Positions 3,824 through 36,175 of a DNA stretch of 60,713 nucleotides are shown in pieces (within the stretch, counting starts at the first letter, position 1; each line of letters starts with the position of its first letter). Made by a program: the position numbers and the translations under genes. Where the stretch lies: positions 1 through 60,713 of the forward strand of contig JAUVJU010000001.1 of assembly GCA_030592285.1 (NCBI GenBank), given 5' to 3'. The notes under the pieces are model-generated. The model did no database searches. It saw only the letters and a program-made list of their open reading frames with translations, and had not been told where the DNA came from. Source of the DNA: a candidate division WOR-3 bacterium (GTDB taxonomy: Bacteria; Hydrothermota; 32-111).

Positions 3824-4409
3824 TCAGAATAGCATTTTCTGCCATTCTCAAAGGTGCATACTTACGGGTCTTATCACGGTTGTCTCTTATTTCAATTTCA
3901 TCTTTAATATTATCAATTTCAACATCAATTCTATTTTGAAGATATTCATTGTAGCGTCTTTTTGCTCTCTCGTCAATAGAACATTCAATATAAAATTTTA
4001 AAGCTGCATTTGGAAAAACCACTGTGCCCATATCTCTTCCTTCTGCAACAATATCACATTTATTCCCTATATCACGCTGAAGAGATACAAGAAAATCCCT
4101 TACACATTTTAAAGTTGATATTTTTGATGCTGCCTGAGATATTTCTTCATTTCTAATTTCTTTTGAAACATTCTCATTATTTAAGAAAATATTCCTATCT
4201 TTATCAAATGTAATATTTATATTATCTAAATGTTTTTTAACATTATTCTTATTCATTACATCAATATTATTTTTAATCATATATAGTGCTGCTGCTCTAT
4301 ACATAGCACCAGTATCAAGATAGATCATTCCCAGCTTTTCAGCACTTCCCTTTGCAGTTGTTGTCTTTCCCGAACCTGCAGGTCCATCTATTGTTATTAT
4401 AAATGTCAT
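3732..4409 (-). CDS. cmk: cytidylate kinase
   Basis: P-loop ITIDGPAGSGKTTTAK, 225 aa, in the classical cmk-rpsA neighbourhood. Confidence 0.92.
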   Translation of the reverse strand: MTFIITIDGPAGSGKTTTAKGSAEKLGMIYLDTGAMYRAAALYMIKNNIDVMNKNNVKKHLDNINITFDKDRNIFLNNENVSKEIRNEEISQAASKISTLKCVRDFLVSLQRDIGNKCDIVAEGRDMGTVVFPNAALKFYIECSIDERAKRRYNEYLQNRIDVEIDNIKDEIEIRDNRDKTRKYAPLRMAENAILIDTTKLSKEDQIKFVIEKAKTVRKNLHFSN

Positions 4410-23889: not shown

Positions 23890-23915
23890 AAAAAAGGGGA
23901 GAAAAGATTCTCCCC
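23890..23915 (-). terminator. rho-independent terminator after the aldehyde dehydrogenase gene
   Basis: The minus strand reads GGGGAGAA-TCTT-TTCTCCCC followed by TTTTTT, starting 5 nt after the TAG stop. Confidence 0.65.
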
Positions 23916-23920
23916 TTTTT

Positions 23921-25417
23921 CTATTTTTCAATACTTGTATCAATTTGTGCTTTTTGAAGTTTTCCGGAATAATCAATATATACCGTTTTCTGTTCAGTAT
24001 ATATTTCATAAACAGTCCATCCGCCTTCTCTATGTCCATTACCTGTTGATTTAACTCCACCAAAAGGCATATGACATTCCGCACCAATAGTTGGACCATT
24101 AATATAGGTAATACCTGAATCAATATCCTCAACAGCATGCATTGCATTATTAATGTTTTTTGTGTATATGCATGAAGATAAACCATATTGAACATCATTA
24201 ATAACCTCAATTGCTTCATCAAATGATTTTACTTTAATAATTGAAAGAACAGGACCAAATATCTCTTCCTGTTCAAGTCGTGAAAATGGTTTTACATTTG
24301 TAAATATTGTAGGTCTATAGAACCATCCACCTGCACATTCACCCTCTTTATACTGCTCGCCGCCTGTAATTAATGTTGCACCCTCTTTCTTTCCAATTTC
24401 CGTATAGGAATGTATCTTTTTCAAGGCAGATTCATTAATAACCGGTCCAAGATCAGTATCTTCATTCCATGGCATTCCTATTTTCATTTTCTCTGCTCTG
24501 TTTTTTAATTTTTCAACAAATTCATCATGAACGGCTTCATGAATAATTATTCTTGAAGTTGCAGTACATCTTTGACCTGCTGTTCCAAATGCACCAAATA
24601 ATGCTCCATCAACTGCAAGATCAATATCCGCATCATCCATAACAATTTGTGCATTTTTACCACCAAGTTCCAATGATACCTTTTTCAAACTCTGTCCTGC
24701 AACTGATGCAATATGCTTGCCTACCTCTGATGAACCGGTAAATGAAATAACTCCAATATCAGGATTTTCCAAAATCGCATTCCCAACAGCAGAACCTGGA
24801 CCATTAACCAAATTAATTACTCCATCAGGAATACCTGCTTCAATCATTATATCAAATAGTTTGGCTACCATTAATGGTGTATCTGATGCAGGTTTAATAA
24901 CAAGTGTGTTTCCTGAAAGTAATGCAGGAAACATTTTCCATGTTGGAATTGCAACGGGAAAATTCCAAGGACATATCATTCCTGCAACACCTATTGGTCT
25001 TAAAAATGTCATATTTATTTTATTGGGCAATTCTGATGGGGATGTTTTTCCAAAGAATCTTCTACCTTCACCAAATGCATAATAGGCAGTATCTATACCT
25101 TCCTGAACATCGCCTCTTGATTCACTAATGATCTTACCCATTTCTTTTGCCATTAATTGTGCAAGTTCCTCTTTCCTTTCAACCATTATGTCCCCTACTT
25201 TTCCAAGTAGTTCTCCTCTCTTTGCTACAGGGACCTTTTTCCATTTTTTAAATGCTTTTTTCGCTGCTTTTACTGCTTCATCAACATCTTCCTTGTCTGA
25301 TTTTGCAACTACTGCTAATACTTCATTCCACTTTGCCGGCATACGGGTCTCAAATGTATCACCACTTTTTGCATCAACCCATTTTCCATTAATAAAATTC
25401 TTTATTGTTTCTGCCAT
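23921..25417 (-). CDS. NAD(P)-dependent aldehyde dehydrogenase family protein
   Basis: Motifs SLELGGKNAQIV, catalytic Cys in GQRCTATSR and EEIFGPV. 498 aa. Confidence 0.9.
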   Translation of the reverse strand: MAETIKNFINGKWVDAKSGDTFETRMPAKWNEVLAVVAKSDKEDVDEAVKAAKKAFKKWKKVPVAKRGELLGKVGDIMVERKEELAQLMAKEMGKIISESRGDVQEGIDTAYYAFGEGRRFFGKTSPSELPNKINMTFLRPIGVAGMICPWNFPVAIPTWKMFPALLSGNTLVIKPASDTPLMVAKLFDIMIEAGIPDGVINLVNGPGSAVGNAILENPDIGVISFTGSSEVGKHIASVAGQSLKKVSLELGGKNAQIVMDDADIDLAVDGALFGAFGTAGQRCTATSRIIIHEAVHDEFVEKLKNRAEKMKIGMPWNEDTDLGPVINESALKKIHSYTEIGKKEGATLITGGEQYKEGECAGGWFYRPTIFTNVKPFSRLEQEEIFGPVLSIIKVKSFDEAIEVINDVQYGLSSCIYTKNINNAMHAVEDIDSGITYINGPTIGAECHMPFGGVKSTGNGHREGGWTVYEIYTEQKTVYIDYSGKLQKAQIDTSIEK

Positions 25418-25433: not shown

Positions 25434-26354
25434 TTACTTAAATGTTTTTAATAGTTTTTCCATATTCAGATCTGGAGGAAATGCTTCCTCAAATAATGTT
25501 ACTGATTCCGAAGTATATGATCTAATATTACTAATATCATCAAGTGTAAGTACAATTTTCTCATAGGATGATAATTCTCCATAACCCTTAAATACTATTG
25601 TATGATTCCCGGGTGATTCTACTGCCTTTCTCATTCCTTTTCCATCATATCCACCCAAAATAATATCTATGCCCTCTATCTTATCAGCCAATGAAAAATC
25701 ATGATCCAAACCAATTGATGTTAATCCTATAATAATATCACATTTATTCTGTTTTAATATATTAACAAGTGCCTCTGCTGTTTTAATTTCCTTTTCAATT
25801 TTAACTGTTTTTAATATATGTTTTCTTAGATCAAAAACAGAATATTCCGTTGTAAGTCCAAATATCCCAATCTTAACACCCTTTTCTTCAATAATAATAT
25901 AATCCTTAAGCCCAATATCACTATCAATGAAATCAATGTTTGACATAAGAACAGGCATATTGAAATTAGCAAAATTCTTTTCAATAAATTTTGCTCCTGA
26001 TGATATCTCATCAATACCAAGATTCACAGCATCATATTTTAATTCATTAAAAACCGTAATTGCCCTACTTAATGAAACAGAATCATGTTCAATATGTTTA
26101 ATTGCAAAATTACCGGAATCAAAGAGAAGTAAAATATTTCCATCTTTCTGTGCCTCTTCTCTTTCCCATTTAATTGCCGTAGCAAATGAATACACTCCAC
26201 CAAGCATTGGAGGGAAATCCGGATTTATAAAGGTTGCACCCCTTGATTGAAAAACATCCTTTATATCATTTGTATGCAAAATTATAACTTTCATTGAAAA
26301 AACAGGTATTACTATTGAAATCATTAATATTATTACAAATATTCTCTTAATCAT
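25434..26354 (-). CDS. secreted calcineurin-like metallophosphatase / 5'-nucleotidase N-domain homologue with degenerate metal-binding motifs
   Basis: Signal peptide. ILHTNDIKDV, LLFDSGNF and NLGIDEIS align to the UshA-type motifs HTND.HG, D.GD and GNHEF but lack the second His, the bridging Asp and the Asn-His. Confidence 0.55.
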   Translation of the reverse strand: MIKRIFVIILMISIVIPVFSMKVIILHTNDIKDVFQSRGATFINPDFPPMLGGVYSFATAIKWEREEAQKDGNILLLFDSGNFAIKHIEHDSVSLSRAITVFNELKYDAVNLGIDEISSGAKFIEKNFANFNMPVLMSNIDFIDSDIGLKDYIIIEEKGVKIGIFGLTTEYSVFDLRKHILKTVKIEKEIKTAEALVNILKQNKCDIIIGLTSIGLDHDFSLADKIEGIDIILGGYDGKGMRKAVESPGNHTIVFKGYGELSSYEKIVLTLDDISNIRSYTSESVTLFEEAFPPDLNMEKLLKTFK

Positions 26355-26363
26355 AAAAAACTC

Positions 26364-26951
26364 CTATTTAATAACTGTTATTTTTGAAAATGATTTTGAC
26401 ATAATATAATCAAAATATTTTTCATATTCAAGAGCAATACCAATAGACCTAATTATTACTGAACATTCATTGTTCTTATCCAAAGCCCAATAACTCCAGT
26501 TGGTAGAGCCGACAATGGTGTAAAGAGAATCAATGATAAGTGTTTTACTATGTACAGTCTCATCAGGATCATCATAATAGACATCAATGCCGCCGCTTCT
26601 TAAAAATTCACCAAGTGCAAGATTTCCATATGATTGACCAGGATTATAGCCCGCCTGATCAAGTACTATTTGAACCTCAACACCTCTATTAACTGCATCA
26701 AATAACACTTGATACATTTGTCTATTAACACCGCTGGGATAATTGGGATAATAACCGCCTGACAGCATAAATATATGGATTGTCTTTTCAGCATTTCTAA
26801 AGAGTTTTATTGCATTAGGTGTGTAATCCCTGTTATTAATCGGATAAACACCATCAGCATCCATATATTCAATATCATTTTCAATGGTTATATCTGCAAA
26901 TAATATAACTGCTAATAATGAAATAATTGAAATTATTATTATCTTTTTCAT
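26364..26951 (-). CDS. secreted single-HKD phospholipase D superfamily protein (Nuc-like)
   Basis: Signal peptide, and one intact HxK(x)4D(x)6GSxN motif: HSKTLIIDSLYTIVGSTN. About 195 aa. Confidence 0.8.
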   Translation of the reverse strand: MKKIIIISIISLLAVILFADITIENDIEYMDADGVYPINNRDYTPNAIKLFRNAEKTIHIFMLSGGYYPNYPSGVNRQMYQVLFDAVNRGVEVQIVLDQAGYNPGQSYGNLALGEFLRSGGIDVYYDDPDETVHSKTLIIDSLYTIVGSTNWSYWALDKNNECSVIIRSIGIALEYEKYFDYIMSKSFSKITVIK

Positions 26952-26961
26952 ATGTTTCTCC

Positions 26962-27540
26962 TTACCTTGGGATAGTCAATTCTACAGTAGAAAATTCAAG
27001 AAGACGATGAAAATAATCAACATAATCAAGAGCAAGCTTTTCAGATTTTACAATAACTGCGGATTCATTGTTTTTCTCAAATGCATAAAAACTCCAATTA
27101 GTTGAACCAATAACAGTATAAAGAGAATCCACAATAACAACCTTTGTATGCGTTGTTTTATCTGCCGGGTCAAAATATACTTCAACACCATTTGCTTTCA
27201 TATATTCGGCAAATTGTTCATTTTTCAGTGTTGATGATACATTCCATGATGATTGATCTACAATGATCTGCACCTTTACATCCCTTTCGGCTGCTCTAAT
27301 CAATGCTTTATACATTTGCCTATTAACACCATCAGGGTATTTTTCATAATACCTTACCTGATAGATCATTGCCTGAATACTATTTTCTGCACTATCAAAG
27401 AGTTTTATCATATTAGGCACATAATCCGTTTTATTAATCACAGCAATACCTTCGGTATCATAAAAAGGAACAATATCCTCGCATATAATTAATGTAAATG
27501 CACCTAAGAGAAGTATAATTATGAACAATGGTTTTTTCAT
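26962..27540 (-). CDS. secreted single-HKD phospholipase D superfamily protein (Nuc-like), paralogue of 26364..26951
   Basis: HTKVVIVDSLYTVIGSTN. Shares blocks with its neighbour along the full length (YP.GVNRQMY, V.VQI..DQ, VDSLYT..GSTNWS). Confidence 0.8.
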   Translation of the reverse strand: MKKPLFIIILLLGAFTLIICEDIVPFYDTEGIAVINKTDYVPNMIKLFDSAENSIQAMIYQVRYYEKYPDGVNRQMYKALIRAAERDVKVQIIVDQSSWNVSSTLKNEQFAEYMKANGVEVYFDPADKTTHTKVVIVDSLYTVIGSTNWSFYAFEKNNESAVIVKSEKLALDYVDYFHRLLEFSTVELTIPR

Positions 27541-27554
27541 ATTTACCTCCCTTG

Positions 27555-28718
27555 TTAAAATGTCATTGAAACATCAAAATTCATTTTTATATATCTATTT
27601 TTATATATAATACTATTATTTTCATATTCATTCTGAATATATTGAGTAGATAAAACAAAATCAATATTATTAATCTCATATACTGCACCTGCTGTAAAAC
27701 CAGCATCCACAACATGATTGTTTTTCCTATATGGTTCATATATGACTCCATATAATGTAGTGAAATCCTTTGTCATTTTATGTTCAATACCTATATGATA
27801 CTTAATAACATCATTATATTCCATATATTCACCATTAAGTTCCGACCATCTTTCATAAATTGCTTCAGCAAGTAATGAAACAGGTCTTAGATTAATAGGG
27901 GTATATTTAATACCCAATCCAAATATGGAAGGTATAAAACCATCCTGCCTATCTGCTGTAGAGATCGTATCAGATGCAATTATATCAATAGATCTTTCGC
28001 TTATCACAATTGTAGGTAAATGGTAAAAGACAGTTGCACTTAATCTATCAATATAATTATAAGATAAAGCAAAACCGCCTTTTAAACCCGAGTACTGTTC
28101 ACTAATACTCAGCATTGAATCTGTTTCTGATGGATCAACATATACAATATTGGATTTTGTTGAGGCATCTCCTTGAAGAATAGAAAAATTGCCGCCCAAG
28201 GTAAAACCCATTAAATTAAATGATGCAGAAATAAAATATGAATTTATATTCCCTTCAATGGAATAATTATCAGTATAAAGTGTTACATAGTAAGCATCCC
28301 TGAATATTTTATTATAATTGTAGTCCCTGCTATACAAATTTTCATATCCAATATATACACCAAAATTTGAGAGAGGTATATATGCACCAATAAAATATGG
28401 TTCTCCATAATAATATGAATTATCATATAATGTTTTTTCCCCAATATTATTATCATAAGAATCAAATATATATTGAGATCTTGATTCCCTGTAGTTCATT
28501 GCTCCAAATCCAATTCTGATATTATATTGCCCTCCATATAATTGCAGAGAAGGATTTATAATCGGATCTGCAATAAAGCACACATTCCCCATTCCTCCGG
28601 AATATGCACTTATTGGAGATACTATGTCACCAATTATCTCCTCTGAATTCATAAAGCCATAACTAAATACAAAAAGAGCCATTATTAAAGTTAATGCAAT
28701 GAAAAAAAGTTTTTTCAT
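27555..28718 (-). CDS. outer-membrane beta-barrel protein (PorV/FadL-like?)
   Basis: Signal peptide MKKLFFIALTLIMALFVFS, with ATG 28718 preceded by GGAGGA. Tyr/Gly-rich alternating strands, C-terminal ...DVSMTF. N-terminal GGMGNVCFIADPIINPS motif. Confidence 0.55.
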   Translation of the reverse strand: MKKLFFIALTLIMALFVFSYGFMNSEEIIGDIVSPISAYSGGMGNVCFIADPIINPSLQLYGGQYNIRIGFGAMNYRESRSQYIFDSYDNNIGEKTLYDNSYYYGEPYFIGAYIPLSNFGVYIGYENLYSRDYNYNKIFRDAYYVTLYTDNYSIEGNINSYFISASFNLMGFTLGGNFSILQGDASTKSNIVYVDPSETDSMLSISEQYSGLKGGFALSYNYIDRLSATVFYHLPTIVISERSIDIIASDTISTADRQDGFIPSIFGLGIKYTPINLRPVSLLAEAIYERWSELNGEYMEYNDVIKYHIGIEHKMTKDFTTLYGVIYEPYRKNNHVVDAGFTAGAVYEINNIDFVLSTQYIQNEYENNSIIYKNRYIKMNFDVSMTF

Positions 28719-28726
28719 TTTTCCTC

Positions 28727-31144
28727 CTACCATCTTATATCAAGCTGCATTGACAGATTGAATATTTGTTTATAATCAGCAAAATCTCTTATTAACATAA
28801 AATCACCGTTTTCATATCTATATTCACTTTCAGGATTATAGATCCCATACATTGGTATATCCTGATTTTTCATAGATGCTTTTGCTCTAATAGAAACATT
28901 TTTGGAAACACGGTCTATCATTGTAATGTAATATTTTAAGCCATCTCCATAGAGAAAGTCAATTCCAGTATCTTCAAATATCCATTGACTCATTCCATCC
29001 GTTTTCCATGCTGCTATACCACCCAAAACCGAGAAGTAATCAGTAATTCTATGTTCAAATGAACCATTTACATATGTTCCATCAATAATATTATCTTCTT
29101 TAAATTTTAGTGATGTTGTTAAATTAACCCTGCCATACCGAGCTTCAAAATTAAGATAATTATTATTACTTAATATGGTAAATATCCTTAGCGTTGTTTC
29201 ATTAGTAAAAGAATGTGTAGAGACCACACTTTTATACAGATTTTTCTCCTGAATTTTCTGTTTCAATCTAATTCTTATAGGAAATACAGGTCTATATTCA
29301 ATTTCTCCCTGAAATCTATAATTGTGTAAATTATAATCCATTGTTTTCCATATATCAATATATGCTTTTGTAATTGTTAATTTCTCAGAAATACGAAAAC
29401 GAGTTTCACAATATATACCCTCTTCGGGTTTTGGTCTTGGATCATCGGTAATCATTGTCAAAATAGGATCAATCAATCTATATTCTTTTTCAAAAGCAGT
29501 ATCATCAAATCTATTCTGTTCCGATAATGGTCTTGCATAAGGATTATCAAATCCTACATCATAATGCCTGAATATTGTTTTAAGATAAAAATTATTAAAT
29601 ATCATATCAGACCGTAGAATATAAGCATAAGCATTATTTTGTTTTGCTATTTCTCCTTCAAAAGATATATTCCTGAAATCTGTTCTGAAATCACAACTAA
29701 AAACATCTCTTACATTACCTGTAAAACCATCAGTATAGACCGGTGTAGAAATATTATCTTTATCATATGGAATATCTAGTACAAGTGTATCTCTAATAAT
29801 ATGCTTATCATAAGCAGATCTAAAACCACTAACTCCAATTTCCGTTGATAAAGGTAAGCCAAAAACATTTCCAAGATCAAATGCTAATCTTCCACCAAAT
29901 AATCGTTCATTCACATTCTCCGAAAATTCTTCAATAAATGTGTTTTGTAGAAGAAGAATATTGACCGAACCATCAGGATTCAAGATTGCATTTCTATTAT
30001 CAGAGCTTCCAAAGGCAAGGAAATTCATTCTTCCAATATTTCCATTAAAGGATAAACCCGTTAATTTAGTACTATAATTTTGTGTTACATCAGGAAATAA
30101 ACCCTTAATAATATCAAATCTTCTTGCTCTATATTCATTAGAGTTGTCCATTAATAATCCCTGTCCAATACTAACTCTATAATTTCCAAAAAAGATATTT
30201 TCAATAAAACCCAGATTTGTGAAATTAACATATCCCTTATATTTGTATTCTTCCTTACCTGCAAATTTTGTTAAGACACCGCCTGCATTAATATAATTCC
30301 CAAATCTGAAGCGTAATTTACTGGAAATATCACCATCCTTTTCCAAGCTGTCAAGCTGCAGAACCTCACTTAACATTCTCAATCTTATATTTCCAATATC
30401 CTGCTCACTCATTCCAGCATCAAGAAGTAGATCCCTGGTATTTGAGGTTCCCGGTGGAGCAATTTCTAATTCATCTACTGCACTTATAATAGAATATTTA
30501 AGACCTGTATAAGATATATAATTATAAGTATCATCATTTGACATATCAAGATTTGTTCTAAAATAACCTGAGAATTTCCAATCATCATTATCATTATATG
30601 CAATATAATTTCTTAATCTTGTCCAAGAATAATGTGTTAATCCGGGTGAGCGTCTTATTTGATTATCATATGAAAAATCCCCAAGAAGATTTCTACTATT
30701 TAATATTGCAACTGCATCTGTTATATTTACACCCTGTATTAATAAAAGATCATTTATTGTTGCATTATTTATATTCATTTTATTGATAAGCATATCTTCC
30801 CATACATCCATAGCACCCTGTGTTGGTGATTCTTCAGATGCTAATCGTTCTTGCAGCCGTACAATATATATTGAGGTTTTGTCAAGAGTAGTATCGGGAT
30901 AAATTGAAATTTTTCGTTTTAGAATATCAAATATTTCCGCATCAACTCCCTCTATTTTATTAAGTTCGTAAATACTCTTTAATTCCCCATGTTCAAAAAC
31001 ATACTGTTTTATGTTTTTTATAACTTCATCAGGAATCATTAGAGTATCAATAGCATCAAGAGACATATTATTAATATCAATCTTTTCTGCAAATACAGGT
31101 AATAAAAGTATTAATAATATGAAAACTGTTAATATTCTCTTCAT
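28727..31144 (-). CDS. envelope protein: two ComEA-type helix-hairpin-helix modules fused to a large beta-barrel-like region
   Basis: Signal peptide. HhH module 1: IDINNMSLDAIDTLMIPDEVIKNIKQYVFEHGELKSIYELNKIEGVDAEIFDILKRKI. HhH module 2: MNINNATINDLLLIQGVNITDAVAILNSRNLLGDF. The remaining ~600 aa are rich in alternating aromatic strands and end LDIRW. Confidence 0.6.
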   Translation of the reverse strand: MKRILTVFILLILLLPVFAEKIDINNMSLDAIDTLMIPDEVIKNIKQYVFEHGELKSIYELNKIEGVDAEIFDILKRKISIYPDTTLDKTSIYIVRLQERLASEESPTQGAMDVWEDMLINKMNINNATINDLLLIQGVNITDAVAILNSRNLLGDFSYDNQIRRSPGLTHYSWTRLRNYIAYNDNDDWKFSGYFRTNLDMSNDDTYNYISYTGLKYSIISAVDELEIAPPGTSNTRDLLLDAGMSEQDIGNIRLRMLSEVLQLDSLEKDGDISSKLRFRFGNYINAGGVLTKFAGKEEYKYKGYVNFTNLGFIENIFFGNYRVSIGQGLLMDNSNEYRARRFDIIKGLFPDVTQNYSTKLTGLSFNGNIGRMNFLAFGSSDNRNAILNPDGSVNILLLQNTFIEEFSENVNERLFGGRLAFDLGNVFGLPLSTEIGVSGFRSAYDKHIIRDTLVLDIPYDKDNISTPVYTDGFTGNVRDVFSCDFRTDFRNISFEGEIAKQNNAYAYILRSDMIFNNFYLKTIFRHYDVGFDNPYARPLSEQNRFDDTAFEKEYRLIDPILTMITDDPRPKPEEGIYCETRFRISEKLTITKAYIDIWKTMDYNLHNYRFQGEIEYRPVFPIRIRLKQKIQEKNLYKSVVSTHSFTNETTLRIFTILSNNNYLNFEARYGRVNLTTSLKFKEDNIIDGTYVNGSFEHRITDYFSVLGGIAAWKTDGMSQWIFEDTGIDFLYGDGLKYYITMIDRVSKNVSIRAKASMKNQDIPMYGIYNPESEYRYENGDFMLIRDFADYKQIFNLSMQLDIRW

Positions 31145-31152
31145 AAATCACC

Positions 31153-32016
31153 TCAGAAGTTATAATTTAATTGTATTAAATGTATGCCATTTACATATTG
31201 ATTTGCAGAGTATCCATAATCAATTGAAAATTTATTCAATATAATCTCAAACCCGCCGGAATATTCTATTGGGAATGATCTTACTCCACATCTTACAATG
31301 AAAACATCCTCCACAATTTCATAATTCACCGCACTGCCAAATGAAGTTGGCCAGCCAGCACTTTTAGAAACATCAAAAGATGTAATAAAATTATCATATG
31401 GTTCAAATGATATGCCTGCATTAACCACTCTCTCAATGTAATATCTATTTGAAGTCATAATTCCTGCAATATACGAGTTTGTAATATTTTTTACTGCAAT
31501 CCCCAAATTCCATCTTTTATAAATTGTTCCAATAAGCCCCATATCTACTGTATAGTAAATATTACTTCCATTATCAATCTGCTCTAAGTACAAAAGATTA
31601 ATATTGGTTCCGAAACTTAAAACATTTGCAAGTGGAATGCCGTATGTTATATTAACTATTCTCTCTGTATGCATCCTTGTTCCTGTTGAGATAATTGAAT
31701 CACTATTAGCATAATCACCAAGAACAAAATACTCGCTGAATTTTGCTCCCATAACGCCATACTGTGTCATATACGAGCCAGATAAGGCAAATGAATGTGT
31801 AAATCCATAAAGATTTTCATAGGATAATGATATATCTGAAATATTTGTTGCAGTTATTGATGCCGGATTGATCATTGCATTTTCAATTCCCATTAATAGT
31901 GAACTTGTGCAATACCTCATTGATTTTACTTTCACATTACCGGGTATATATTCAAATGCTGCAAATGACAATAAGGCAAAAAGAATAAGTGTGATAGTTA
32001 TTATATTTTTTTTCAT
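31153..32016 (-). CDS. outer-membrane beta-barrel protein (PorQ/PorP-like?)
   Basis: Signal peptide, LLMGIENAMINPASI motif, alternating strands, C-terminal ...QLNYNF. Confidence 0.5.
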   Translation of the reverse strand: MKKNIITITLILFALLSFAAFEYIPGNVKVKSMRYCTSSLLMGIENAMINPASITATNISDISLSYENLYGFTHSFALSGSYMTQYGVMGAKFSEYFVLGDYANSDSIISTGTRMHTERIVNITYGIPLANVLSFGTNINLLYLEQIDNGSNIYYTVDMGLIGTIYKRWNLGIAVKNITNSYIAGIMTSNRYYIERVVNAGISFEPYDNFITSFDVSKSAGWPTSFGSAVNYEIVEDVFIVRCGVRSFPIEYSGGFEIILNKFSIDYGYSANQYVNGIHLIQLNYNF

Positions 32017-32028
32017 ATTTGACCCCTA

Positions 32029-34020
32029 TCAGTTCAAAACAGTTGTAACAATAATTGGTTTTATTATTCTGATTACTTTTCCACCAAAAGTAATCTTCTC
32101 AACAACAAGTATATAGGAAGCAATATTCACAGGTGCACCGGCATGATTTTTCCCATCCCAGATAATTGTAGTTGAACCCGGAACATTTTCAGCAATGACC
32201 TTTATTAATCTCCCATTCATATCAAATATTCTTGCTGTTATTCGTTCATTATTAAGACATTCAATTTCAATTCTTGCTGTCTCTCCTCTTTCAAATGATA
32301 CTGGATTTGGAAAAACAGCCACAGATAATGTTGAGTCCTCCTCATTCTCTACAAGTTCAATGTCTTCCATAAAACGAACAAGTAATTGATAACCTGATGA
32401 GTATGGTTCCTCAGTATCATACTGTCCTCCAATACCTATTACATTAATAAGTAAACCTGGCTTTATTGTCTTCATTAGATTACTATTAAAAAGATCTGTT
32501 TTTTCATCTGCTCTTACATCAATAATTGTCTGCCCATTAAGTATCTGGAAGTTTTTGCCGCTTCCCAAAGTAACGGGAGCAGTTATTACCTTTCCATACT
32601 GCACTTCAAGCAGAGAACCCTCATTAAGTTCATTAACACCCTGCGAATTTATCAAGACCTTTGGTTCAACAATAGCTAAAGTGTCATTAATGATCATAAT
32701 ATCTGTTTCAGGTGAAGAGTATTTAACCTCGGTTAAACCATTATACTCTTCAACCGTACCTGTTATTAGTAATTCCATACCCAATTTGAAATTACTATTC
32801 ATTGCATCATTACCAGAATATATATTCACTCCTCCTGTTCCATCCTGAATATAAAATCCCGTTGAAGTTGATGTTGGAGAAAATATAGAGGATGGTCCTG
32901 TTACAATACCCTTAATTGTTACACTTTCATTTAAATAAATTGATTTATATCCATCAGTTGTTTTCTGCACCTCTTCTATATTTGTAATTTCAATATCCGG
33001 CATTATATTAATTATTGGAAATTCATTAATATATGCAAAATATGAAGGCGACAAGCCCGTGTAAACAGTAAATGTATCAGGTCCATCAAAATATAGTTTT
33101 TCAACATATACTGATATTGTATCAATTAAATGAGCATCATAAATATCAAATGTGATTCTGCTATTTAAAGAATCCTTATTAATAATCATAGAATCAACAT
33201 TACTGATAATATTTACCGAATCCATTAACGAATCAACATCAAATCTTACCCTGACAAAATCTATCACACCATAAGTACTGTCAACAGTTGGAAAAATATC
33301 AATACGGAAATTAACAAGTTCATTATTATCACAATACTTAGGATTTATTCTTGCTCCTCCACTGCCATCAAGGGATTTGAGAATGTCTTTATCACTAGAT
33401 GGCATGATCTTAAAATCACCATAATCATAGTCCACCACTCCTGTAAGAAAAATCAAACTATCTCCAATTACAGGTGTATAGGAATATTCTGCATAATCGC
33501 TTTCAGTTGCCCAGCATTCACCACTGCCATCATCAATTTCCCAATCCCCATATCTATCCTGAGTTGATACAACTCCTACATTTTCTACAATTACAAGAAC
33601 ACCTTCATATTTTTCTTTGGCAGTGTCAGGTACACTTTCACCCAAAGCAGCAGTGCTTATATTTATAGGAGCAGGCAGAATGTTATTTGAGGAATGAACA
33701 GTATAGTCCGATATATCCTTTATTTCCGTTTTATTATAGTACTCAGTAACAAGTCCTGTTACTGTTATATAATCACCTTCATTAAATCCACTGCCAAGAC
33801 TAAATAACTGTATTCCACTCCATTCAAATATGCCGAATGTATCCTGAATAAAAACATCTGTCCCATAAACCCGGGTTATAATCCCCGATACAGTTACTGT
33901 TTGATCAATATACGGAGAATCACCTGATGAGTCCTCTGTATATTGTATATCTCTTATAGTTAATGAAAAAAGAGATAATGCAGTTAGAAATATCAATGTT
34001 GTTATAACAATTGATTTCAT
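32029..34020 (-). CDS. surface protein with two ExeM/NucH-type OB-fold modules, no nuclease domain, and a T9SS/FlgD-Ig-like C-terminal tail
   Basis: OB module 1: TIRDIQYTEDSSGDSPYIDQTVTVSGIITRVYGTDVFIQD...GDYITVTGLVTEYYNKTEI. OB module 2: SVTIKGIVTG...GFYIQDGTGGVNIYS...LLITGTVEEYNGLTEV. Tail: VFPNPVSFERGE...ARIFDMNGRLIKVI...WDGKNHAG. The start overlaps the rpoN stop (ATGA). Confidence 0.7.
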   Translation of the reverse strand: MKSIVITTLIFLTALSLFSLTIRDIQYTEDSSGDSPYIDQTVTVSGIITRVYGTDVFIQDTFGIFEWSGIQLFSLGSGFNEGDYITVTGLVTEYYNKTEIKDISDYTVHSSNNILPAPINISTAALGESVPDTAKEKYEGVLVIVENVGVVSTQDRYGDWEIDDGSGECWATESDYAEYSYTPVIGDSLIFLTGVVDYDYGDFKIMPSSDKDILKSLDGSGGARINPKYCDNNELVNFRIDIFPTVDSTYGVIDFVRVRFDVDSLMDSVNIISNVDSMIINKDSLNSRITFDIYDAHLIDTISVYVEKLYFDGPDTFTVYTGLSPSYFAYINEFPIINIMPDIEITNIEEVQKTTDGYKSIYLNESVTIKGIVTGPSSIFSPTSTSTGFYIQDGTGGVNIYSGNDAMNSNFKLGMELLITGTVEEYNGLTEVKYSSPETDIMIINDTLAIVEPKVLINSQGVNELNEGSLLEVQYGKVITAPVTLGSGKNFQILNGQTIIDVRADEKTDLFNSNLMKTIKPGLLINVIGIGGQYDTEEPYSSGYQLLVRFMEDIELVENEEDSTLSVAVFPNPVSFERGETARIEIECLNNERITARIFDMNGRLIKVIAENVPGSTTIIWDGKNHAGAPVNIASYILVVEKITFGGKVIRIIKPIIVTTVLN

Positions 34021-35459
34021 TCTACCTCCTTAAAGTATTTTTTTCTCTTACTTGCAGGCAATATATCCATTATTTCGCGATATTTTGCCACTGTTCTTCT
34101 TGCAATCATAATTTTATATTGATCTTTTAGAATATCTACAATTCTCTGATCAGTCAATGGTGTTCTTTGATTTTCTTTTTCAATCACCTTTTTAATTATA
34201 TCCTTAACATTTGTTGATGATGTATTACCTTCTTCTGTTAATATTGAGCGGGAAAAGAAAAACTTGAATGGGAATATACCCTTTGCCGTATCAATGTATT
34301 TTCTATAAGTTGCTCTTGAAACCGTTGATTCATGAATCCCCAAATAGTTAGAAATGTCCTGTAATACCATAGGTTTTAAGGCGGAAATACCAAAATGAAA
34401 AAATTCCTTTTGAAGCATAATTATCCGTTCAGAAATATTAAGTAATGTTTTATTCCTTTTATTAATACCAGAAACAAGAAAAATTGCACTATTTAAGCGT
34501 TTTTTAAGAAATTTTTCTTCCTTTTTGGTCAATTTATTCTTCCCCTGCAATATATCAAGGTATCTTTTATTTAAATGAACCTCTGGAAAATAATTGCTGT
34601 TTATTTCAGGAATAAATTCATCTCCCTGCTTTCTCACTAAAATATCCGGTACAATATAATTAGATGACTTGCCCCATTCACCGTTTGCCGGTTTAGGATT
34701 AAGTTTCTTTATATCCTCAATTGCAATTTTAAATTCATCATTGCTAATATCTATTTTATTCGAAATTCTATACATTTTATTTTTAAGAAAATCATCATAA
34801 AAATCATTGATAATTGTAAATGCAAAAGTATCTGTCATTTTTTTATATTTAAGTTGTGTTAGAAAACATTCTCTAACATTCCTGCTCCCTACTCCTATAG
34901 GGTCTAATAATCTGATTCTATCCAAAATATTTTCAAAATTTTTATGAGTAATATTAAATGTCTTAATAATTACATTTTCAATGTTTTCCTCTTCATTTTC
35001 ATGATCTACTTTCAGAAAACCATCATCTGAAAGGGATGTTACAATAAATTCGGCAACTTCCATTTCAAGATGATTTCCAAATTTTATATGAACCTGTGTT
35101 AATAAATGCTGCTTAAAACTTATTGGCTCGGAATATATATCAACAGGATTAAAGTTTTCATGTTCTTTTTTCTTTTTTGAAAAATCAATGCCAGGTTTTT
35201 TCCAATCATCATGGTAAAAATATTCAAAATCAATTTCATCCTTTTTATCTGATTTAGATTCCTCTTTCTCCTTGATTGTAGTTTCAGATTCATCATCATC
35301 TTCAGACATTTCTTCTTCAAGAAATGGATTCTGTTCAATTTCATGCCTGATTAATTGTTGCAGTTCAAGACGCGGCATTTGCAAGATTTTCAACAATTCT
35401 AATAATTGCGGGCTAAGTATCTGCTCCAATTTGTTTTGTAATGACTGTGAGTGCTTCAT
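34017..35459 (-). CDS. rpoN: RNA polymerase sigma-54 factor
   Basis: RpoN box ARRTVAKYRE, HTH LGIHESTVSRA, acidic region II. Confidence 0.92.
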   Translation of the reverse strand: MKHSQSLQNKLEQILSPQLLELLKILQMPRLELQQLIRHEIEQNPFLEEEMSEDDDESETTIKEKEESKSDKKDEIDFEYFYHDDWKKPGIDFSKKKKEHENFNPVDIYSEPISFKQHLLTQVHIKFGNHLEMEVAEFIVTSLSDDGFLKVDHENEEENIENVIIKTFNITHKNFENILDRIRLLDPIGVGSRNVRECFLTQLKYKKMTDTFAFTIINDFYDDFLKNKMYRISNKIDISNDEFKIAIEDIKKLNPKPANGEWGKSSNYIVPDILVRKQGDEFIPEINSNYFPEVHLNKRYLDILQGKNKLTKKEEKFLKKRLNSAIFLVSGINKRNKTLLNISERIIMLQKEFFHFGISALKPMVLQDISNYLGIHESTVSRATYRKYIDTAKGIFPFKFFFSRSILTEEGNTSSTNVKDIIKKVIEKENQRTPLTDQRIVDILKDQYKIMIARRTVAKYREIMDILPASKRKKYFKEVE

Positions 35460-36175
35460 ATTCTAAATTTGTCTCCAAGATATAATTCTCTTGCTTTATC
35501 GCTTTTTATAAGTTCTTCGGCAGTTCCTGTTATAAGCAAATTGCCTTCATATATTATATGGGCAATATCAATTATTTCAAGGGTTTCCCTTACATTATGA
35601 TCTGTTATAATTACTCCAATATTATCTGATGCAAGTTCTCTTATAATACCCTGAATATCCTGTCTAACTTTTGGATCAATTCCTGTAAATGGTTCATCCA
35701 AAAGAAGAAAGGAAGGATTCACTGTTAATGCACGGGCAATTTCAACTCTTCTTCGTTCACCTCCTGATAATTTTGATGATTTTCTTTTCCTTAAATGCCC
35801 TATTTTCAATCTTTCAAGAAGAGATTCTTCTCTCCTTTTTTGTTCTTTCTCTGAAATACCAATCATTTGCAATATTGCCATTAAATTATCTTCAACACTT
35901 AAATTCCTGAAAACAGATGATTCTTGAGGTAAATATCCAATTCCTCTTCTTGATCTTTTGTACATTGGTTCATTTGTTATATTAATATCATCAAAATAAA
36001 TATTCCCGCCATCTGAATTTATCATACCTGTTATCATGTAAAATGTTGTTGTCTTTCCTGCTCCATTTGGACCCAATAAGCCCACTACTGAACCTGTTTC
36101 AACAACTATATTCAGGTCATTTACTACTTTTTTATTCCCATAACTTTTACTCAGATTATCTGCTTTTAATTTCAT
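35456..36175 (-). CDS. lptB: LPS export ABC transporter ATP-binding protein
   Basis: Walker A GPNGAGKTT, signature LSGGERRRVEIAR, Walker B LLLDEP. Lies directly upstream of rpoN. Confidence 0.9.
   Translation of the reverse strand: MKLKADNLSKSYGNKKVVNDLNIVVETGSVVGLLGPNGAGKTTTFYMITGMINSDGGNIYFDDINITNEPMYKRSRRGIGYLPQESSVFRNLSVEDNLMAILQMIGISEKEQKRREESLLERLKIGHLRKRKSSKLSGGERRRVEIARALTVNPSFLLLDEPFTGIDPKVRQDIQGIIRELASDNIGVIITDHNVRETLEIIDIAHIIYEGNLLITGTAEELIKSDKARELYLGDKFRI

What the first reader, a model, noticed from the sequence alone, without database searches (positions are those of the whole stretch)
28727..31144. Two ComEA-type helix-hairpin-helix modules fused to a ~600-aa beta-barrel-like region
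After a signal peptide, residues ~22-80 (IDINNMSLDAIDTLMIPDEVIKNIKQYVFEHGELKSIYELNKIEGVDAEIFDILKRKI) and ~122-180 (MNINNATINDLLLIQGVNITDAVAILNSRNLLGDFSYDNQIRRSPGLTHYSWTRLRNYI) both follow the ComEA pattern (i.iN.A....L..+.G+....A..I...R...G.F.s...L..+.G+). In competent bacteria ComEA is a soluble or anchored periplasmic DNA receptor. Here the DNA-binding modules are covalently joined to a long Tyr/Phe/Gly/Asn-rich region with alternating strands that ends in an aromatic residue (LDIRW), which is typical of an outer-membrane barrel. Such a fusion could be a DNA-specific outer-membrane conduit or anchor.
Basis: partly seen in the sequence, partly recalled or inferred. Interest (0 to 1): 0.7.

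Follow-up and report, generated by a model that had tools for sequence, protein, structure and literature searches.

The report
Outer-membrane barrel with built-in DNA-receptor-like domains
This gene encodes a large outer-membrane pore-like barrel whose periplasmic end carries two ComEA-like helix-hairpin-helix modules. It sits in a conserved operon with a surface DNA-binding protein, two adaptor barrels, nucleases and a nucleotidase, so it is probably the membrane core of an uncharacterised apparatus for capturing or importing external DNA.

Summary
ORF 28727-31144 (minus strand, 805 aa) has a signal peptide, two HHH_3 modules (Pfam E 7.9e-13) and a 615-aa C-terminal region. AlphaFold2 models that region as about 24 long beta strands, and Foldseek matches it only to outer-membrane barrels. 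Loop lengths follow the usual outer-membrane pattern and place the HhH modules in the periplasm.

A barrel-only profile finds 1674 cluster representatives. Of the 99 that are full length, 94 carry one to three HhH modules, so the fusion defines an unnamed family. It occurs in WOR-3, Fermentibacteria, Cloacimonadota, KSB1, Calditrichaeota and Bacteroidota.

A PorV/PorQ-family barrel gene is adjacent in 81 of 85 loci. Outside Bacteroidota the operon adds:
- a surface protein with DUF5689 and a fold like HIN dsDNA-binding domains;
- a BamG/FadL-like barrel;
- a 5'-nucleotidase;
- in this clade, two secreted PLD nucleases.

The best reading is a nucleic-acid capture and import module analogous to Bacteroidales ddb loci, with a different membrane component.

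Caveats: the residues ComEA uses to contact DNA are not conserved, so DNA binding is unproven. Passage of DNA through the barrel is also unproven. I found no publication on this family.

The parts
28727..31144 (-). Target gene: 805-aa protein made of a signal peptide, two (HhH)2 modules and an outer-membrane beta-barrel of about 24 strands
   Evidence: ORF; HHH_3; AF2 model; Foldseek matches only outer-membrane barrels
31088..31144 (-). Signal peptide, residues 1-19 (MKRILTVFILLILLLPVFA|EK)
   Evidence: Read from the translation. No signal-peptide predictor was available, so this is inferred from the pattern of basic N-terminus, hydrophobic core and VFA.
30905..31087 (-). HhH module 1 (residues 20-80). 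Acidic, with degenerate hairpins (MIPDEV / GVDAEI).
   Evidence: HHH_3 stretch 18-79; pI 4.6
30785..30904 (-). Acidic helical linker (residues 81-120) with the invariant A102-S103-E104 (motif LASEE) and invariant W115
   Evidence: Invariant columns A102, S103, E104, W115; pI 4.1; low pLDDT
30599..30784 (-). HhH module 2 (residues 121-182). Basic, lies next to the barrel, and is the module retained in the single-module Bacteroidota relatives.
   Evidence: TIGR00426 match 122-181; pI 9.5; family scan
28730..30574 (-). Beta-barrel domain (residues 191-805), about 24 strands, with a C-terminal beta-signal ending in Trp
   Evidence: DSSP strands; loop-length pattern; Foldseek
30332..30538 (-). Helical insert between strands 1 and 2 (residues 203-271). 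Specific to this clade and absent in P0014. Candidate cap or plug.
   Evidence: Helices 212-225, 236-242 and 247-265; gap in P0014
29426..29560 (-). Long loop 7 (residues 529-573), dense in invariant residues (DNPYxRxxxEQxRxDDTxxExxYRLxDP). Candidate in-barrel constriction or binding site.
   Evidence: Invariant N534, Y536, R538, R545, E552, Y555, L557, D559; position between strands 13 and 14
32029..34020 (-). 663-aa secreted protein with two OB/HIN-like (DUF5689) modules and a C-terminal FlgD_ig / T9SS-tail-like domain. Putative cell-surface dsDNA receptor.
   Evidence: DUF5689 31.7 bits (cut-off 28.6), OB-fold, similarity to the ExeM/NucH N-terminus. AF2 pLDDT 87. Top Foldseek hits are HIN-dsDNA complexes 5z7d, 4jbm, 3rn5, 8i6k. 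Syntenic in 50 loci.
31153..32016 (-). 287-aa PorV/PorQ-family (FadL-like) outer-membrane barrel. It is the near-universal neighbour of the HhH-barrel gene.
   Evidence: NCBIfam PorV_fam matches 19 of 21 family members, best E 1e-18. The window copy itself matches only PorQ, at 22 bits. Found in 81 of 85 loci, directly upstream in all 13 Bacteroidota loci printed.
27555..28733 (-). 392-aa BamG/FadL-like outer-membrane barrel
   Evidence: NCBIfam BamG matches 12 of 18 family members, best E 1.9e-12. The window copy has no hit. hhalign to the PorV/Q-like family gives probability 98%. Syntenic in 51 loci.
26962..27540 (-). 192-aa secreted PLD-family (Nuc/NucT-like) nuclease with an intact HxK(x)4D motif. 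Its signal peptide ends LIIC|ED, a possible lipobox.
   Evidence: PLDc_2 E 1.2e-24; NucT models; motif read from the sequence
26364..26951 (-). 195-aa secreted PLD-family (Nuc/NucT-like) nuclease, a paralogue of the preceding gene
   Evidence: PLDc_2 E 7.4e-23; signal peptide and HSK motif read from the sequence
25434..26354 (-). 306-aa secreted UshA-like metallophosphatase. In this clade it is truncated and its motifs are degenerate. In other lineages it is a full 5'-nucleotidase.
   Evidence: NCBIfam UshA-like and SoxB hits. The L021 orthologue has Metallophos and 5_nucleotid_C. HTNDIKD here against HTNDIHG elsewhere.
23891..23920 (.). Terminator-like hairpin, predicted on both strands, that closes the run of tightly packed minus-strand genes (after the aldehyde dehydrogenase gene at 23921-25417)
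   Evidence: 13-bp stem followed by a T run. Gaps or overlaps between genes from rpoN to aldh are at most 16 nt.

Best explanation
The protein is the central outer-membrane component of a conserved apparatus for capturing and importing nucleic acid, found in FCB-group bacteria.

Shown:
- It is a secreted protein of about 24 beta strands with outer-membrane-barrel topology.
- Its N-terminal tandem (HhH)2 modules lie on the periplasmic side.
- The fusion is the defining architecture of a large unnamed family.
- It is encoded almost always next to a PorV/PorQ-family barrel. In WOR-3 and Fermentibacteria it lies in the fixed gene order: surface HIN/DUF5689-like protein, PorV/Q-like barrel, HhH-barrel, BamG-like barrel, 5'-nucleotidase. 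The closest relatives, including this window, add secreted PLD nucleases.

Inferred mechanism:
1. The surface protein captures double-stranded DNA. It is displayed through its T9SS-type C-terminal domain, which is probably held by the PorV/Q-like adaptor.
2. DNA or large fragments thread through the wide barrel.
3. The tethered periplasmic HhH modules, chiefly the basic module 2, grip the incoming polyanion at the pore exit.
4. Periplasmic Nuc-type nucleases and the 5'-nucleotidase degrade it. Breakdown makes entry irreversible and yields nucleosides and phosphate.

The primary role is therefore nutrient scavenging, functionally parallel to the Bacteroidales ddbABCDEF loci, with a TonB-independent barrel that has no plug domain in place of DdbC.
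For: - Barrel and topology.
- HHH_3 modules.
- Family-wide fusion: a barrel-only profile finds 1674, 305 and 93 representatives at E 1e-3, 1e-10 and 1e-30. Of 99 full-length representatives, 65 have two HhH modules, 28 have one and 1 has three.
- Synteny: of 85 loci, the PorV/Q-like gene is present in 81. By phmmer with the window's proteins, the surface OB/HIN protein is present in 50, the BamG-like barrel in 51 and the nucleotidase in 47.
- Surface protein: DUF5689 above the gathering score, 43 bits in L008. Top Foldseek hits are HIN domains bound to dsDNA, including 4JBM, the structure the ddb paper used for DdbD (PMC12478041).
- Enzymes: a full 5'-nucleotidase in the Fermentibacteria orthologous operon and Nuc/NucT-like PLD nucleases with signal peptides here. 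An adenosine deaminase gene lies directly upstream in L001.
- FadL-like barrels as adaptors that dock on a larger barrel and hold surface proteins: shown for BamG-BamA-BamH (PMC12611786).
Against: - The ComEA residues that contact DNA are not conserved. The position of V. cholerae K63 is a nearly invariant Asp, the second Gly of every hairpin is replaced, and module 1 and the linker are acidic.
- One tethered receptor per pore cannot act as the multi-copy ratchet proposed for ComEA.
- The model coordinates could not be inspected, so the lumen may be plugged by the helical insert (residues 203-271) or by loop 7.
- In Bacteroidota the two-gene unit has no nucleases or OB-fold protein nearby.
- In the window's own clade the nucleotidase is truncated and its catalytic motifs are degenerate.
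- No energy source for import is evident.
Confidence: 0.5

Rival explanations
1. Competence-type DNA uptake. The barrel, with its tethered HhH receptor, brings intact DNA into the periplasm and hands it to ComEC for natural transformation. It would replace both the PilQ secretin and soluble ComEA. This could coexist with scavenging.
For: - ComEA-like fold in the periplasm.
- DUF5689 surface proteins and an outer-membrane barrel are essential for transformation in Riemerella (PMC8459023).
- NucT-type PLD nucleases resemble the models named nuclease NucT. A role for NucT in H. pylori transformation is from my own knowledge.
- No type IV pilus genes lie in the locus, so a pilus-independent route would be needed.
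Against: - A periplasmic 5'-nucleotidase is the most conserved enzyme of the operon. It acts on mononucleotides, which points to breakdown.
- No ComEC, DprA or ComF is among the 45 ORFs of 156 aa or more that I scanned; three ORFs of 225-282 aa at 2301-4409 were not scanned.
- The Lys pair essential in ComEA is absent.
Confidence: 0.15
2. Platform rather than channel. The barrel is a scaffold that, with the two FadL-like adaptors, anchors the surface DNA-binding protein (and perhaps nucleases) on the cell. DNA is digested outside, and the products enter through other porins. The HhH modules tether the complex to a periplasmic partner or polymer.
For: - Both FadL-like neighbours belong to families whose characterised members are adaptors, not transporters.
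- The HhH hairpins are degenerate and partly acidic.
- PLD192 may be a lipoprotein with acidic residues after the Cys.
- The barrel has long, conserved loops that could fill the lumen.
Against: - Building a barrel of about 24 strands merely as an anchor is uneconomical.
- The nucleotidases and PLD195 have ordinary signal peptides with no lipobox Cys at the predicted cleavage site, which suggests a periplasmic location and therefore a need for imported substrate.
- The HhH fusion is conserved in 94 of 99 relatives.
Confidence: 0.2
3. Export or assembly device. Together with its PorV/PorQ-like partner, the barrel is a small T9SS-like translocon, or a BAM-type accessory, that secretes or assembles cargo carrying the C-terminal domain. 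It would have no direct role in moving DNA.
For: - The universal partner is of the PorV/PorQ family, and the second neighbour is BamG-like.
- The upstream cargo carries a FlgD_ig / Por_Secre_tail-like domain, and its model also matches PorU.
- Another protein with a FlgD_ig C-terminal domain is in the window at 58057-59505.
Against: - This does not explain the conserved periplasmic HhH modules or the co-conserved 5'-nucleotidase.
- Bacteroidota, which already have the SprA translocon (PMC12611786), also keep the pair.
- The model has no specific similarity to SprA, BamA or LptD among the top 50 Foldseek hits.
Confidence: 0.08
4. Anti-phage defence locus, suggested by the similarity of the PLD proteins to DISARM DrmC.
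For: The two PLD proteins match DrmC models at E 1e-13 to 1e-8.
Against: - No other locus protein matches PADLOC, and no DrmA, DrmB or methylase is present.
- Both PLD proteins have signal peptides.
- The scores are far below NCBIfam's DrmC cut-off (53.6 against 133).
- The PLD genes are absent from most orthologous operons.
Confidence: 0.01

Closest known systems
ComEA, the periplasmic DNA receptor of competent bacteria (V. cholerae ComEA; B. subtilis ComEA, PDB 8DFK), acting with the PilQ secretin
   Same: An (HhH)2 fold of the HHH_3 type located in the periplasm at the exit of an outer-membrane pore. The proposed role is to hold incoming DNA.
   Different: - Here the modules are duplicated and covalently fused to the pore, which is a beta-barrel and not a secretin.
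- The scores are below the ComEA-specific cut-offs.
- The GIG hairpin and the Lys pair essential in ComEA are not conserved.
- One tethered copy cannot coat DNA as free ComEA does.
Bacteroidales DNA-utilisation locus ddbABCDEF and the related Riemerella transformation genes RA0C_RS04915/RS04920 (PMC12478041, PMC8459023)
   Same: The locus logic is the same: a surface DUF5689 protein with a HIN-like dsDNA-binding fold, an adjacent outer-membrane barrel, and secreted nucleases.
   Different: - The membrane component is unrelated. It has no Plug, TonB_dep_Rec or CarboxypepD_reg domain and carries periplasmic HhH modules instead.
- Two FadL-like adaptor barrels and a 5'-nucleotidase are part of the unit.
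- The surface protein has a T9SS-type C-terminal domain, whereas most ddb surface proteins (DdbA, E, F) carry lipoprotein-type signal peptides.
- The nucleases here are PLD-family (Nuc/NucT-like); I did not check which families the ddb nucleases belong to.
FadL-like adaptor barrels of the FCB group: PorV/PorQ of the type IX secretion system, and BamG of the Bacteroidota BAM complex (PMC12611786)
   Same: The two small barrels flanking the target belong to these families at family level. In known systems such barrels dock on a large barrel (BamA for BamG, from the paper; SprA for PorV, from my own knowledge) and hold a surface protein.
   Different: The large partner here would be the HhH-barrel, which resembles neither SprA nor BamA. 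The window's own copies score weakly against the curated models. No physical interaction has been shown.
Scavenging of external DNA as a phosphorus source by secreted nucleases plus periplasmic UshA-type nucleotidases (Vibrio Xds/Dns; Shewanella ExeM). Recalled from my own knowledge.
   Same: An OB-fold DNA-binding module like the ExeM/NucH N-terminus, and a 5'-nucleotidase, are encoded together.
   Different: Those systems have no dedicated outer-membrane barrel with DNA-binding-type domains.
Large outer-membrane barrels of 24-26 strands (FimD/PapC ushers, MtrB)
   Same: Similar predicted strand number. These give the best TM-scores normalised by query length among the hits (0.31-0.33).
   Different: TM-scores are low, sequence identity is 6-9%, and there is no usher plug or N- and C-terminal domains. 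The resemblance is generic to barrels and is not evidence of homology.

Membership tests
ComEA (NCBIfam TIGR01259 / TIGR00426; Pfam HHH_3) | (HhH)2 domain scoring above the Pfam HHH_3 gathering threshold | tested here: met
   48.7 bits against 27, in two stretches
ComEA (NCBIfam TIGR01259 / TIGR00426; Pfam HHH_3) | Score above the curated ComEA-specific cut-offs | tested here: not met
   TIGR00426 34.3 bits against 53.1; TIGR01259 36.7 bits against 152.35
ComEA (NCBIfam TIGR01259 / TIGR00426; Pfam HHH_3) | GIG hairpin followed by the DNA-contacting Lys pair (V. cholerae G60, K62, K63) | tested here: not met
   In the alignment to B. subtilis ComEA, GVGPSK aligns with GVNITD. D143 is nearly invariant. 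Module 1 has MIPDEV. The requirement for these residues comes from PMC3879209.
ComEA (NCBIfam TIGR01259 / TIGR00426; Pfam HHH_3) | Small protein that is soluble in the periplasm or anchored in the inner membrane | tested here: not met
   805 aa, fused to a 615-aa barrel
ComEA (NCBIfam TIGR01259 / TIGR00426; Pfam HHH_3) | Binds dsDNA without sequence specificity | not testable with these tools
   Needs a gel-shift or anisotropy assay with residues 20-185
Outer-membrane beta-barrel protein (BAM substrate) | N-terminal signal peptide and a C-terminal beta-signal ending in an aromatic residue | tested here: met
   VFA|EK cleavage-like site. The C-terminus L-S-M-Q-L-D-I-R-W alternates hydrophobic and polar. 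The terminal residue is W or F in all 13 aligned sequences.
Outer-membrane beta-barrel protein (BAM substrate) | Even number of antiparallel strands, with short turns on one side and long loops on the other | tested here: met
   24 strands by DSSP. Turns average 3.5 residues and loops 22.4.
Outer-membrane beta-barrel protein (BAM substrate) | Predicted fold matches solved membrane barrels, not soluble beta folds | tested here: met
   All top 50 Foldseek PDB hits are outer-membrane barrels with probability 1.00, though TM-scores are only 0.13-0.33 normalised by query length
Outer-membrane beta-barrel protein (BAM substrate) | Open lumen wide enough for DNA | not testable with these tools
TonB-dependent transporter / DdbC type | Plug domain, TonB_dep_Rec barrel and CarboxypepD_reg N-terminal domain | tested here: not met
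   HHH_3 is the only Pfam hit at E up to 0.1
Secretin (PilQ) | Secretin domain and N0/N1 domains | tested here: not met
   No such Pfam or NCBIfam hit
ddb-like DNA-utilisation locus | Surface protein with DUF5689 and a HIN-like dsDNA-binding fold, encoded next to an outer-membrane barrel | tested here: met
   DUF5689 31.7 bits against 28.6. Foldseek matches HIN domains bound to dsDNA, including 4JBM. One gene separates it from the barrel.
ddb-like DNA-utilisation locus | Secreted nucleases in the locus | tested here: met
   Two PLD/Nuc-like proteins with signal peptides and an intact HKD motif. They are present only in the closest relatives, L002-L010.
ddb-like DNA-utilisation locus | Membrane transporter homologous to DdbC | tested here: not met
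   No TonB-dependent transporter domains
ddb-like DNA-utilisation locus | Locus-dependent depletion of external DNA | not testable with these tools
   Needs culture work or heterologous expression
PorV/PorQ family (gene 31153-32016) | Match to NCBIfam NF033709 / NF033711 | tested here: inconclusive
   19 of 21 family members match PorV_fam, best E 1e-18. The window copy matches only PorQ, at 22 bits against a cut-off of 220.
BamG family (gene 27555-28733) | Match to NCBIfam NF053685 | tested here: inconclusive
   12 of 18 family members match, best E 1.9e-12. The window copy has no hit. It is homologous to the PorV/Q-like family by hhalign at 98% probability.

The most novel reading that the evidence does not exclude
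The HhH-barrel, together with its PorV/PorQ-like partner, is a third and previously unrecognised kind of outer-membrane DNA translocon, alongside the PilQ secretin and the DdbC-type TonB-dependent barrels. It would need neither a pilus nor TonB, would carry its own periplasmic DNA receptor, and would be widespread across the FCB superphylum including cultured Bacteroidota.
Probability: 0.35. Interest if true: 0.8.

Novelty: new variant of a known kind. Interest (0 to 1): 0.66.

Why it matters
How DNA crosses the outer membrane is understood mainly for pilus and secretin systems. A TonB-type route in Bacteroidota was recognised only in 2021-2025.

A barrel with a built-in periplasmic receptor-like domain would be a further solution. 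It occurs in at least 1674 protein clusters, in phyla that are abundant in sediments, digesters and aquatic habitats, where external DNA is a major pool of phosphorus and nitrogen.

Three consequences follow:
- It gives a concrete, testable candidate for DNA foraging, or gene uptake, in uncultured WOR-3 and Fermentibacteria.
- It extends the emerging theme that FadL-like barrels (PorV, PorQ, BamG) act as adaptors around large barrels in FCB bacteria.

Because the two-gene core is present in cultured Bacteroidota (Pontibacter, Lishizhenia), the hypothesis can be tested genetically.

Tried and rejected
- Sequence search of the PDB with the whole protein gave only marginal HhH hits (EEPD1 E 0.12; ComEA E 0.39) and nothing for the barrel.
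- Pfam and NCBIfam found no family for the barrel.
- Foldseek found no specific structural relative, only generic barrels with TM-scores of at most 0.33 normalised by query length.
- LptD or BAM identity, suggested by the adjacent lptB-rpoN genes, was rejected. That adjacency holds only in the closest WOR-3 relatives, and LptD and BamA are not among the top 50 hits.
- The defence-system reading was rejected.
- The sigma-70 promoter scan was uninformative: 92 sites against 86.7 expected.
- The odd/even hydrophobicity test of the strands gave only weak support: 2.27 against 1.56 in the soluble control.
- Six literature searches found no paper on this family.
- I could not settle whether the Riemerella transformation protein RA0C_RS02645 belongs to this family. 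Its HhH domain at residues 236-301, its predicted periplasmic location and its homologues in Firmicutes and Actinobacteria suggest an ordinary ComEA. Its sequence and length were not available.
- Look-up of the contig encoding P0013 failed.


Full report
**Observation.** The ORF is exactly where the finding says, on the minus strand: 28727..31144, 805 aa. It begins with a typical signal peptide (MKRILTVFILLILLLPVFA|EK) and ends in ...QLDIRW. Pfam HHH_3 matches twice, at 48.7 bits against a gathering score of 27 (E 7.9e-13); the best stretch is residues 18-79. NCBIfam's ComEA HhH repeat model matches residues 122-181 at E 1.8e-8. No model in Pfam or NCBIfam matches the remaining roughly 620 residues.

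**Is the C-terminal region a membrane barrel?** AlphaFold2 on a 25-sequence alignment gives mean pLDDT 78.5 and pTM 0.76. The N-terminal 185 residues are helical. Residues 191-804 form 24 long strands averaging 12.75 residues.

- Foldseek against the PDB returns only outer-membrane barrels among the top 50, all with probability 1.00: AlgE, FadL, FimD/PapC, MtrB, TonB-dependent transporters, porins and SlpA. TM-scores normalised by query length are only 0.13-0.33. The fold class is therefore clear, but no specific relative exists.
- Connections alternate between short (3, 2, 2, 11, 2, 3, 4, 2, 4, 4, 2 residues) and long (69, 6, 34, 22, 26, 2, 45, 4, 6, 6, 18, 31). With an even strand number, this is the usual outer-membrane pattern of periplasmic turns and external loops. 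It places both termini, and hence the HhH modules, in the periplasm. That last step is an inference from the general rule.
- The C-terminus has the alternating hydrophobic pattern and terminal aromatic residue of a beta-signal.
- A simple odd/even hydrophobicity test was only weakly supportive.

**Is the fusion conserved?** Word-based searches found 14 close homologues, mostly labelled candidate division WOR-3, plus distant Bacteroidota proteins of about 690 aa.

- An exhaustive HMM search with a profile of the barrel alone (A3) found 1674 cluster representatives at E up to 1e-3, 305 at 1e-10 and 93 at 1e-30.
- I built an HMM from the window-type HhH modules and scanned the 99 listed representatives of at least 600 aa. 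Of these, 65 have two modules, 28 have one, 1 has three and 5 have none, and the modules always lie N-terminal to the barrel.
- The HhH-barrel fusion therefore defines a large family. [quoted passage not shown]
- A scan of one genome per GTDB species confirmed 195 relatives. The best 80 come from WOR-3, Fermentibacteria (Hyd24-12, Sabulitectum, Aegiribacteria), Cloacimonadota, KSB1, Calditrichaeota and Flavobacteriales/Crocinitomicaceae. The closest is 92% identical and unclassified. The window probably comes from a WOR-3 lineage; this is an inference.

**Neighbourhood.** All genes from lptB (36175) to an aldehyde dehydrogenase (23921) are on the minus strand, with gaps or overlaps of at most 16 nt. 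They end at a strong hairpin at 23891-23920. The order is as follows.

| Coordinates | Product |
|---|---|
| 35456-36175 | LptB-like ABC ATPase (named from its sequence and from the ABC_tran hit on its L002 orthologue) |
| 34017-35459 | RpoN (named from the Sigma54 domain hits on its L002 orthologue; its stop overlaps the next gene's start) |
| 32029-34020 | 663-aa secreted protein |
| 31153-32016 | 287-aa barrel |
| 28727-31144 | the target |
| 27555-28733 | 392-aa barrel |
| 26962-27540 | PLD protein, 192 aa |
| 26364-26951 | PLD protein, 195 aa |
| 25434-26354 | 306-aa phosphatase-like protein |
| 23921-25417 | aldehyde dehydrogenase |

I searched six-frame ORFs of 85 fetched loci with the window's proteins.

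- The order 663-aa protein, 287-aa barrel, HhH-barrel, 392-aa barrel, phosphatase recurs throughout WOR-3 and Fermentibacteria, in loci whose barrel is only 33-42% identical to the window's.
- A more distant group (24-29% identity) keeps the first three genes.
- The PLD genes occur only in the closest relatives, L002-L010.
- A profile of the 287-aa family finds a member in 81 of 85 loci. In all 13 Bacteroidota loci it lies directly upstream of the barrel gene.

**What the neighbours are.**

- *663-aa protein.* It has an OB fold, DUF5689 above its gathering score (31.7 against 28.6) and similarity to the N-terminus of ExeM/NucH nucleases. It ends in a weak FlgD_ig / T9SS-tail-like domain. Relatives score higher: DUF5689 reaches 43 bits, and FlgD_ig, Por_Secre_tail and CHU_C also match. 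Its AF2 model (pLDDT 87) matches HIN-200 dsDNA-binding domains best: the p204 HINab-dsDNA complex at E 1.4e-8, then p202 (4JBM), AIM2, IFI16 and MNDA, all with probability 1.00. It also matches PorU. 4JBM is the structure used to argue that DdbD, the DUF5689 protein of the Bacteroidales DNA-utilisation locus, binds DNA (PMC12478041).
- *287-aa family.* It matches NCBIfam 'PorV/PorQ family' in 19 of 21 members (best E 1e-18), although the window copy reaches only 22 bits on PorQ.
- *392-aa family.* It matches NCBIfam BamG in 12 of 18 members (best E 1.9e-12), and the window copy has no hit. The two small-barrel families are homologous (hhalign probability 98%). BamG is a FadL-like barrel that docks on BamA and holds the surface lipoprotein BamH (PMC12611786).
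- *PLD proteins.* Both have signal peptides and an intact HxK(x)4D motif, and they resemble Nuc/NucT nucleases.
- *Phosphatase.* In Fermentibacteria it is a full 5'-nucleotidase, with Metallophos and 5_nucleotid_C (E 3.5e-30) and the HTNDIHG motif. In the window's clade it is cut to about 305 aa and the motifs are degenerate (HTNDIKD; GIDE where UshA-type enzymes, from my own knowledge, have GNHE).
- *Other context.* L001 has an adenosine deaminase gene directly upstream of the module. Among the 45 window ORFs of 156 aa or more that I scanned, the rest are housekeeping or signalling genes or have no hit, with no ComEC, DprA, ComF or pilus genes; three ORFs of 225-282 aa at 2301-4409 were not scanned.

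**How ComEA-like are the modules?** The fold assignment is solid, but membership in ComEA is not.

- Both ComEA-specific NCBIfam models score below their cut-offs.
- In V. cholerae ComEA, G60, K62 and K63 of the first hairpin are required for DNA binding and uptake, and K63E abolishes transformation (PMC3879209).
- In the HMMER alignment to B. subtilis ComEA, GVGPSK aligns with GVNITD of module 2. The Asp at the K63 position (D143) is nearly invariant in the family.
- Module 1 has MIPDEV at that site. The second hairpins are GVDAEI and PGLTHY.
- Module 1 (pI 4.2-4.8 in the window and its nine closest homologues) and the linker (pI 4.1-4.7, with the invariant A102-S103-E104 and W115) are acidic. 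Module 2 is basic (pI 9.4-10.1 in the window and its ten closest homologues) and keeps a conserved Arg pair just before its second hairpin.
- DNA binding is therefore plausible for module 2 but unproven. If it occurs, it does not use ComEA's mapped contacts.

**Best explanation (confidence about 0.5).** The protein is the large-barrel core of an outer-membrane apparatus for nucleic-acid capture and import. The HIN-like surface protein binds external DNA and is held by the PorV/Q-like adaptor through its C-terminal domain. DNA or fragments pass through the barrel. The tethered periplasmic HhH modules grip the incoming polymer. Periplasmic nucleases and the 5'-nucleotidase then degrade it, which makes entry irreversible. 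The conserved nucleotidase, and in one locus a deaminase, point to scavenging rather than transformation.

- Shown: the domain architecture, the topology pattern, the extent of the family, the synteny, and the fold classes of the partners.
- Inferred: complex formation, passage of DNA, binding by the HhH modules, and the physiological role.

**Rivals.**
- Transformation-type uptake (0.15).
- A non-conducting platform that anchors surface DNA-binding and nuclease proteins (0.2).
- A T9SS- or BAM-like export or assembly device (0.08).
- A defence locus (0.01). PADLOC matches only the generic PLD fold, and the PLD proteins are secreted.

**Comparison with known systems.** In function the locus is closest to the ddbABCDEF loci and the Riemerella RS04915/RS04920 system. 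It shares a DUF5689 surface receptor, a membrane barrel and nucleases. The barrel, however, has no TonB-dependent-transporter domains, so it is not a member of that transporter family. It works like ComEA plus PilQ only in outline. It fails ComEA's specific tests and has no secretin domain.

**Novelty.** Six full-text searches found no paper on an HhH-barrel fusion. I rate it a new variant of a known kind of system (a DNA-utilisation or uptake locus) built around an uncharacterised protein family. There is about a one-in-three chance that it is a distinct type of outer-membrane DNA translocon.

**Limits.** No multimer prediction was possible. Whole genomes of carriers could not be screened for ComEC. 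I could not check whether Riemerella RA0C_RS02645 belongs to the family; its published description suggests an ordinary ComEA.

Noticed in passing
window 25434-26354 (-): The UshA-like phosphatase of this operon is cut to 306 aa. It has no 5_nucleotid_C domain and its metallophosphatase motifs are degenerate (HTNDIKD instead of HTNDIHG; GIDE where UshA-type enzymes, from my own knowledge, have GNHE). Orthologues in other WOR-3 clades and in Fermentibacteria are full-length (500-590 aa) with intact motifs. The truncation is found in the same clade that has the PLD nuclease genes (one in L008/L010, two in the closer relatives). It may be an inactive or repurposed enzyme.
   Followed up: partly
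window 26962-27540 (-): The signal peptide of the first PLD nuclease ends ...TLIIC|EDIV. This may be a lipobox, with acidic residues after the Cys that recall the Bacteroidota signal for exporting lipoproteins to the cell surface. Its paralogue (26364-26951) has an ordinary signal peptide. The two may sit in different compartments or form a heterodimer.
   Followed up: no
window 30785-30904 (-), residues 81-120 of the target: The linker between the two HhH modules is strongly acidic (pI 4.1) and includes three consecutive invariant residues (A102-S103-E104 in LASEE) plus invariant W115, more conserved than HhH module 1. Its pLDDT is low. Single-module Bacteroidota relatives also have an acidic helix before their module. 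It might mimic DNA as an autoinhibitor, or it might be a docking motif.
   Followed up: no
window 34017-34020: The rpoN stop codon overlaps the start codon of the 663-aa surface-protein gene. The DNA-related operon may therefore be co-transcribed with lptB-rpoN. This adjacency is kept in L002 and L004-L006 but not in more distant relatives.
   Followed up: partly
window 23891-23920: A strong terminator-like hairpin predicted on both strands (13-bp stem with T runs on both strands) lies immediately after the aldehyde dehydrogenase gene. It marks the end of the long minus-strand gene run. The aldehyde dehydrogenase is syntenic only in the closest relatives, and a link to deoxyribose breakdown is speculative.
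   Followed up: no
window 58057-59505 (-): A second secreted protein (482 aa) carries a C-terminal FlgD_ig domain (39 bits). This suggests that the genome uses this domain as a general sorting tag, probably of the T9SS type.
   Followed up: no
window 15662-17671 (+): A 669-aa ORF with a GTG start and no Pfam hit is one of the few large plus-strand ORFs in a window that is otherwise almost entirely minus-strand. GC skew turns locally positive here, in the 16001-18000 window.
   Followed up: no
L050 and L071 (both from MAG CAZNFQ01, binchicken_co42_201): One genome bin carries two divergent copies of the module (34% and 27% identity to the window protein). Each has its own OB/HIN protein and PorV/Q-like gene, so paralogous systems may coexist.
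   Followed up: no
L001 1107-2177 (+): An adenosine deaminase gene lies directly upstream of the OB/HIN protein, PorV/Q-like barrel and HhH-barrel trio in this distant relative. This fits purine salvage from imported nucleic acid.
   Followed up: no
P0073 (1251 aa): One family member has an extra N-terminal region of about 430 aa before the two HhH modules (437-498 and 543-603) and the barrel. Its content was not examined.
   Followed up: no
L083 6476-7167 (+) and L084 150-602 (+): In a Bacteroidota locus, one or two small genes (80 and 150 aa) with no Pfam hits lie directly upstream of the PorV/Q-like and HhH-barrel pair on the same strand. They may be further components of the unit.
   Followed up: no
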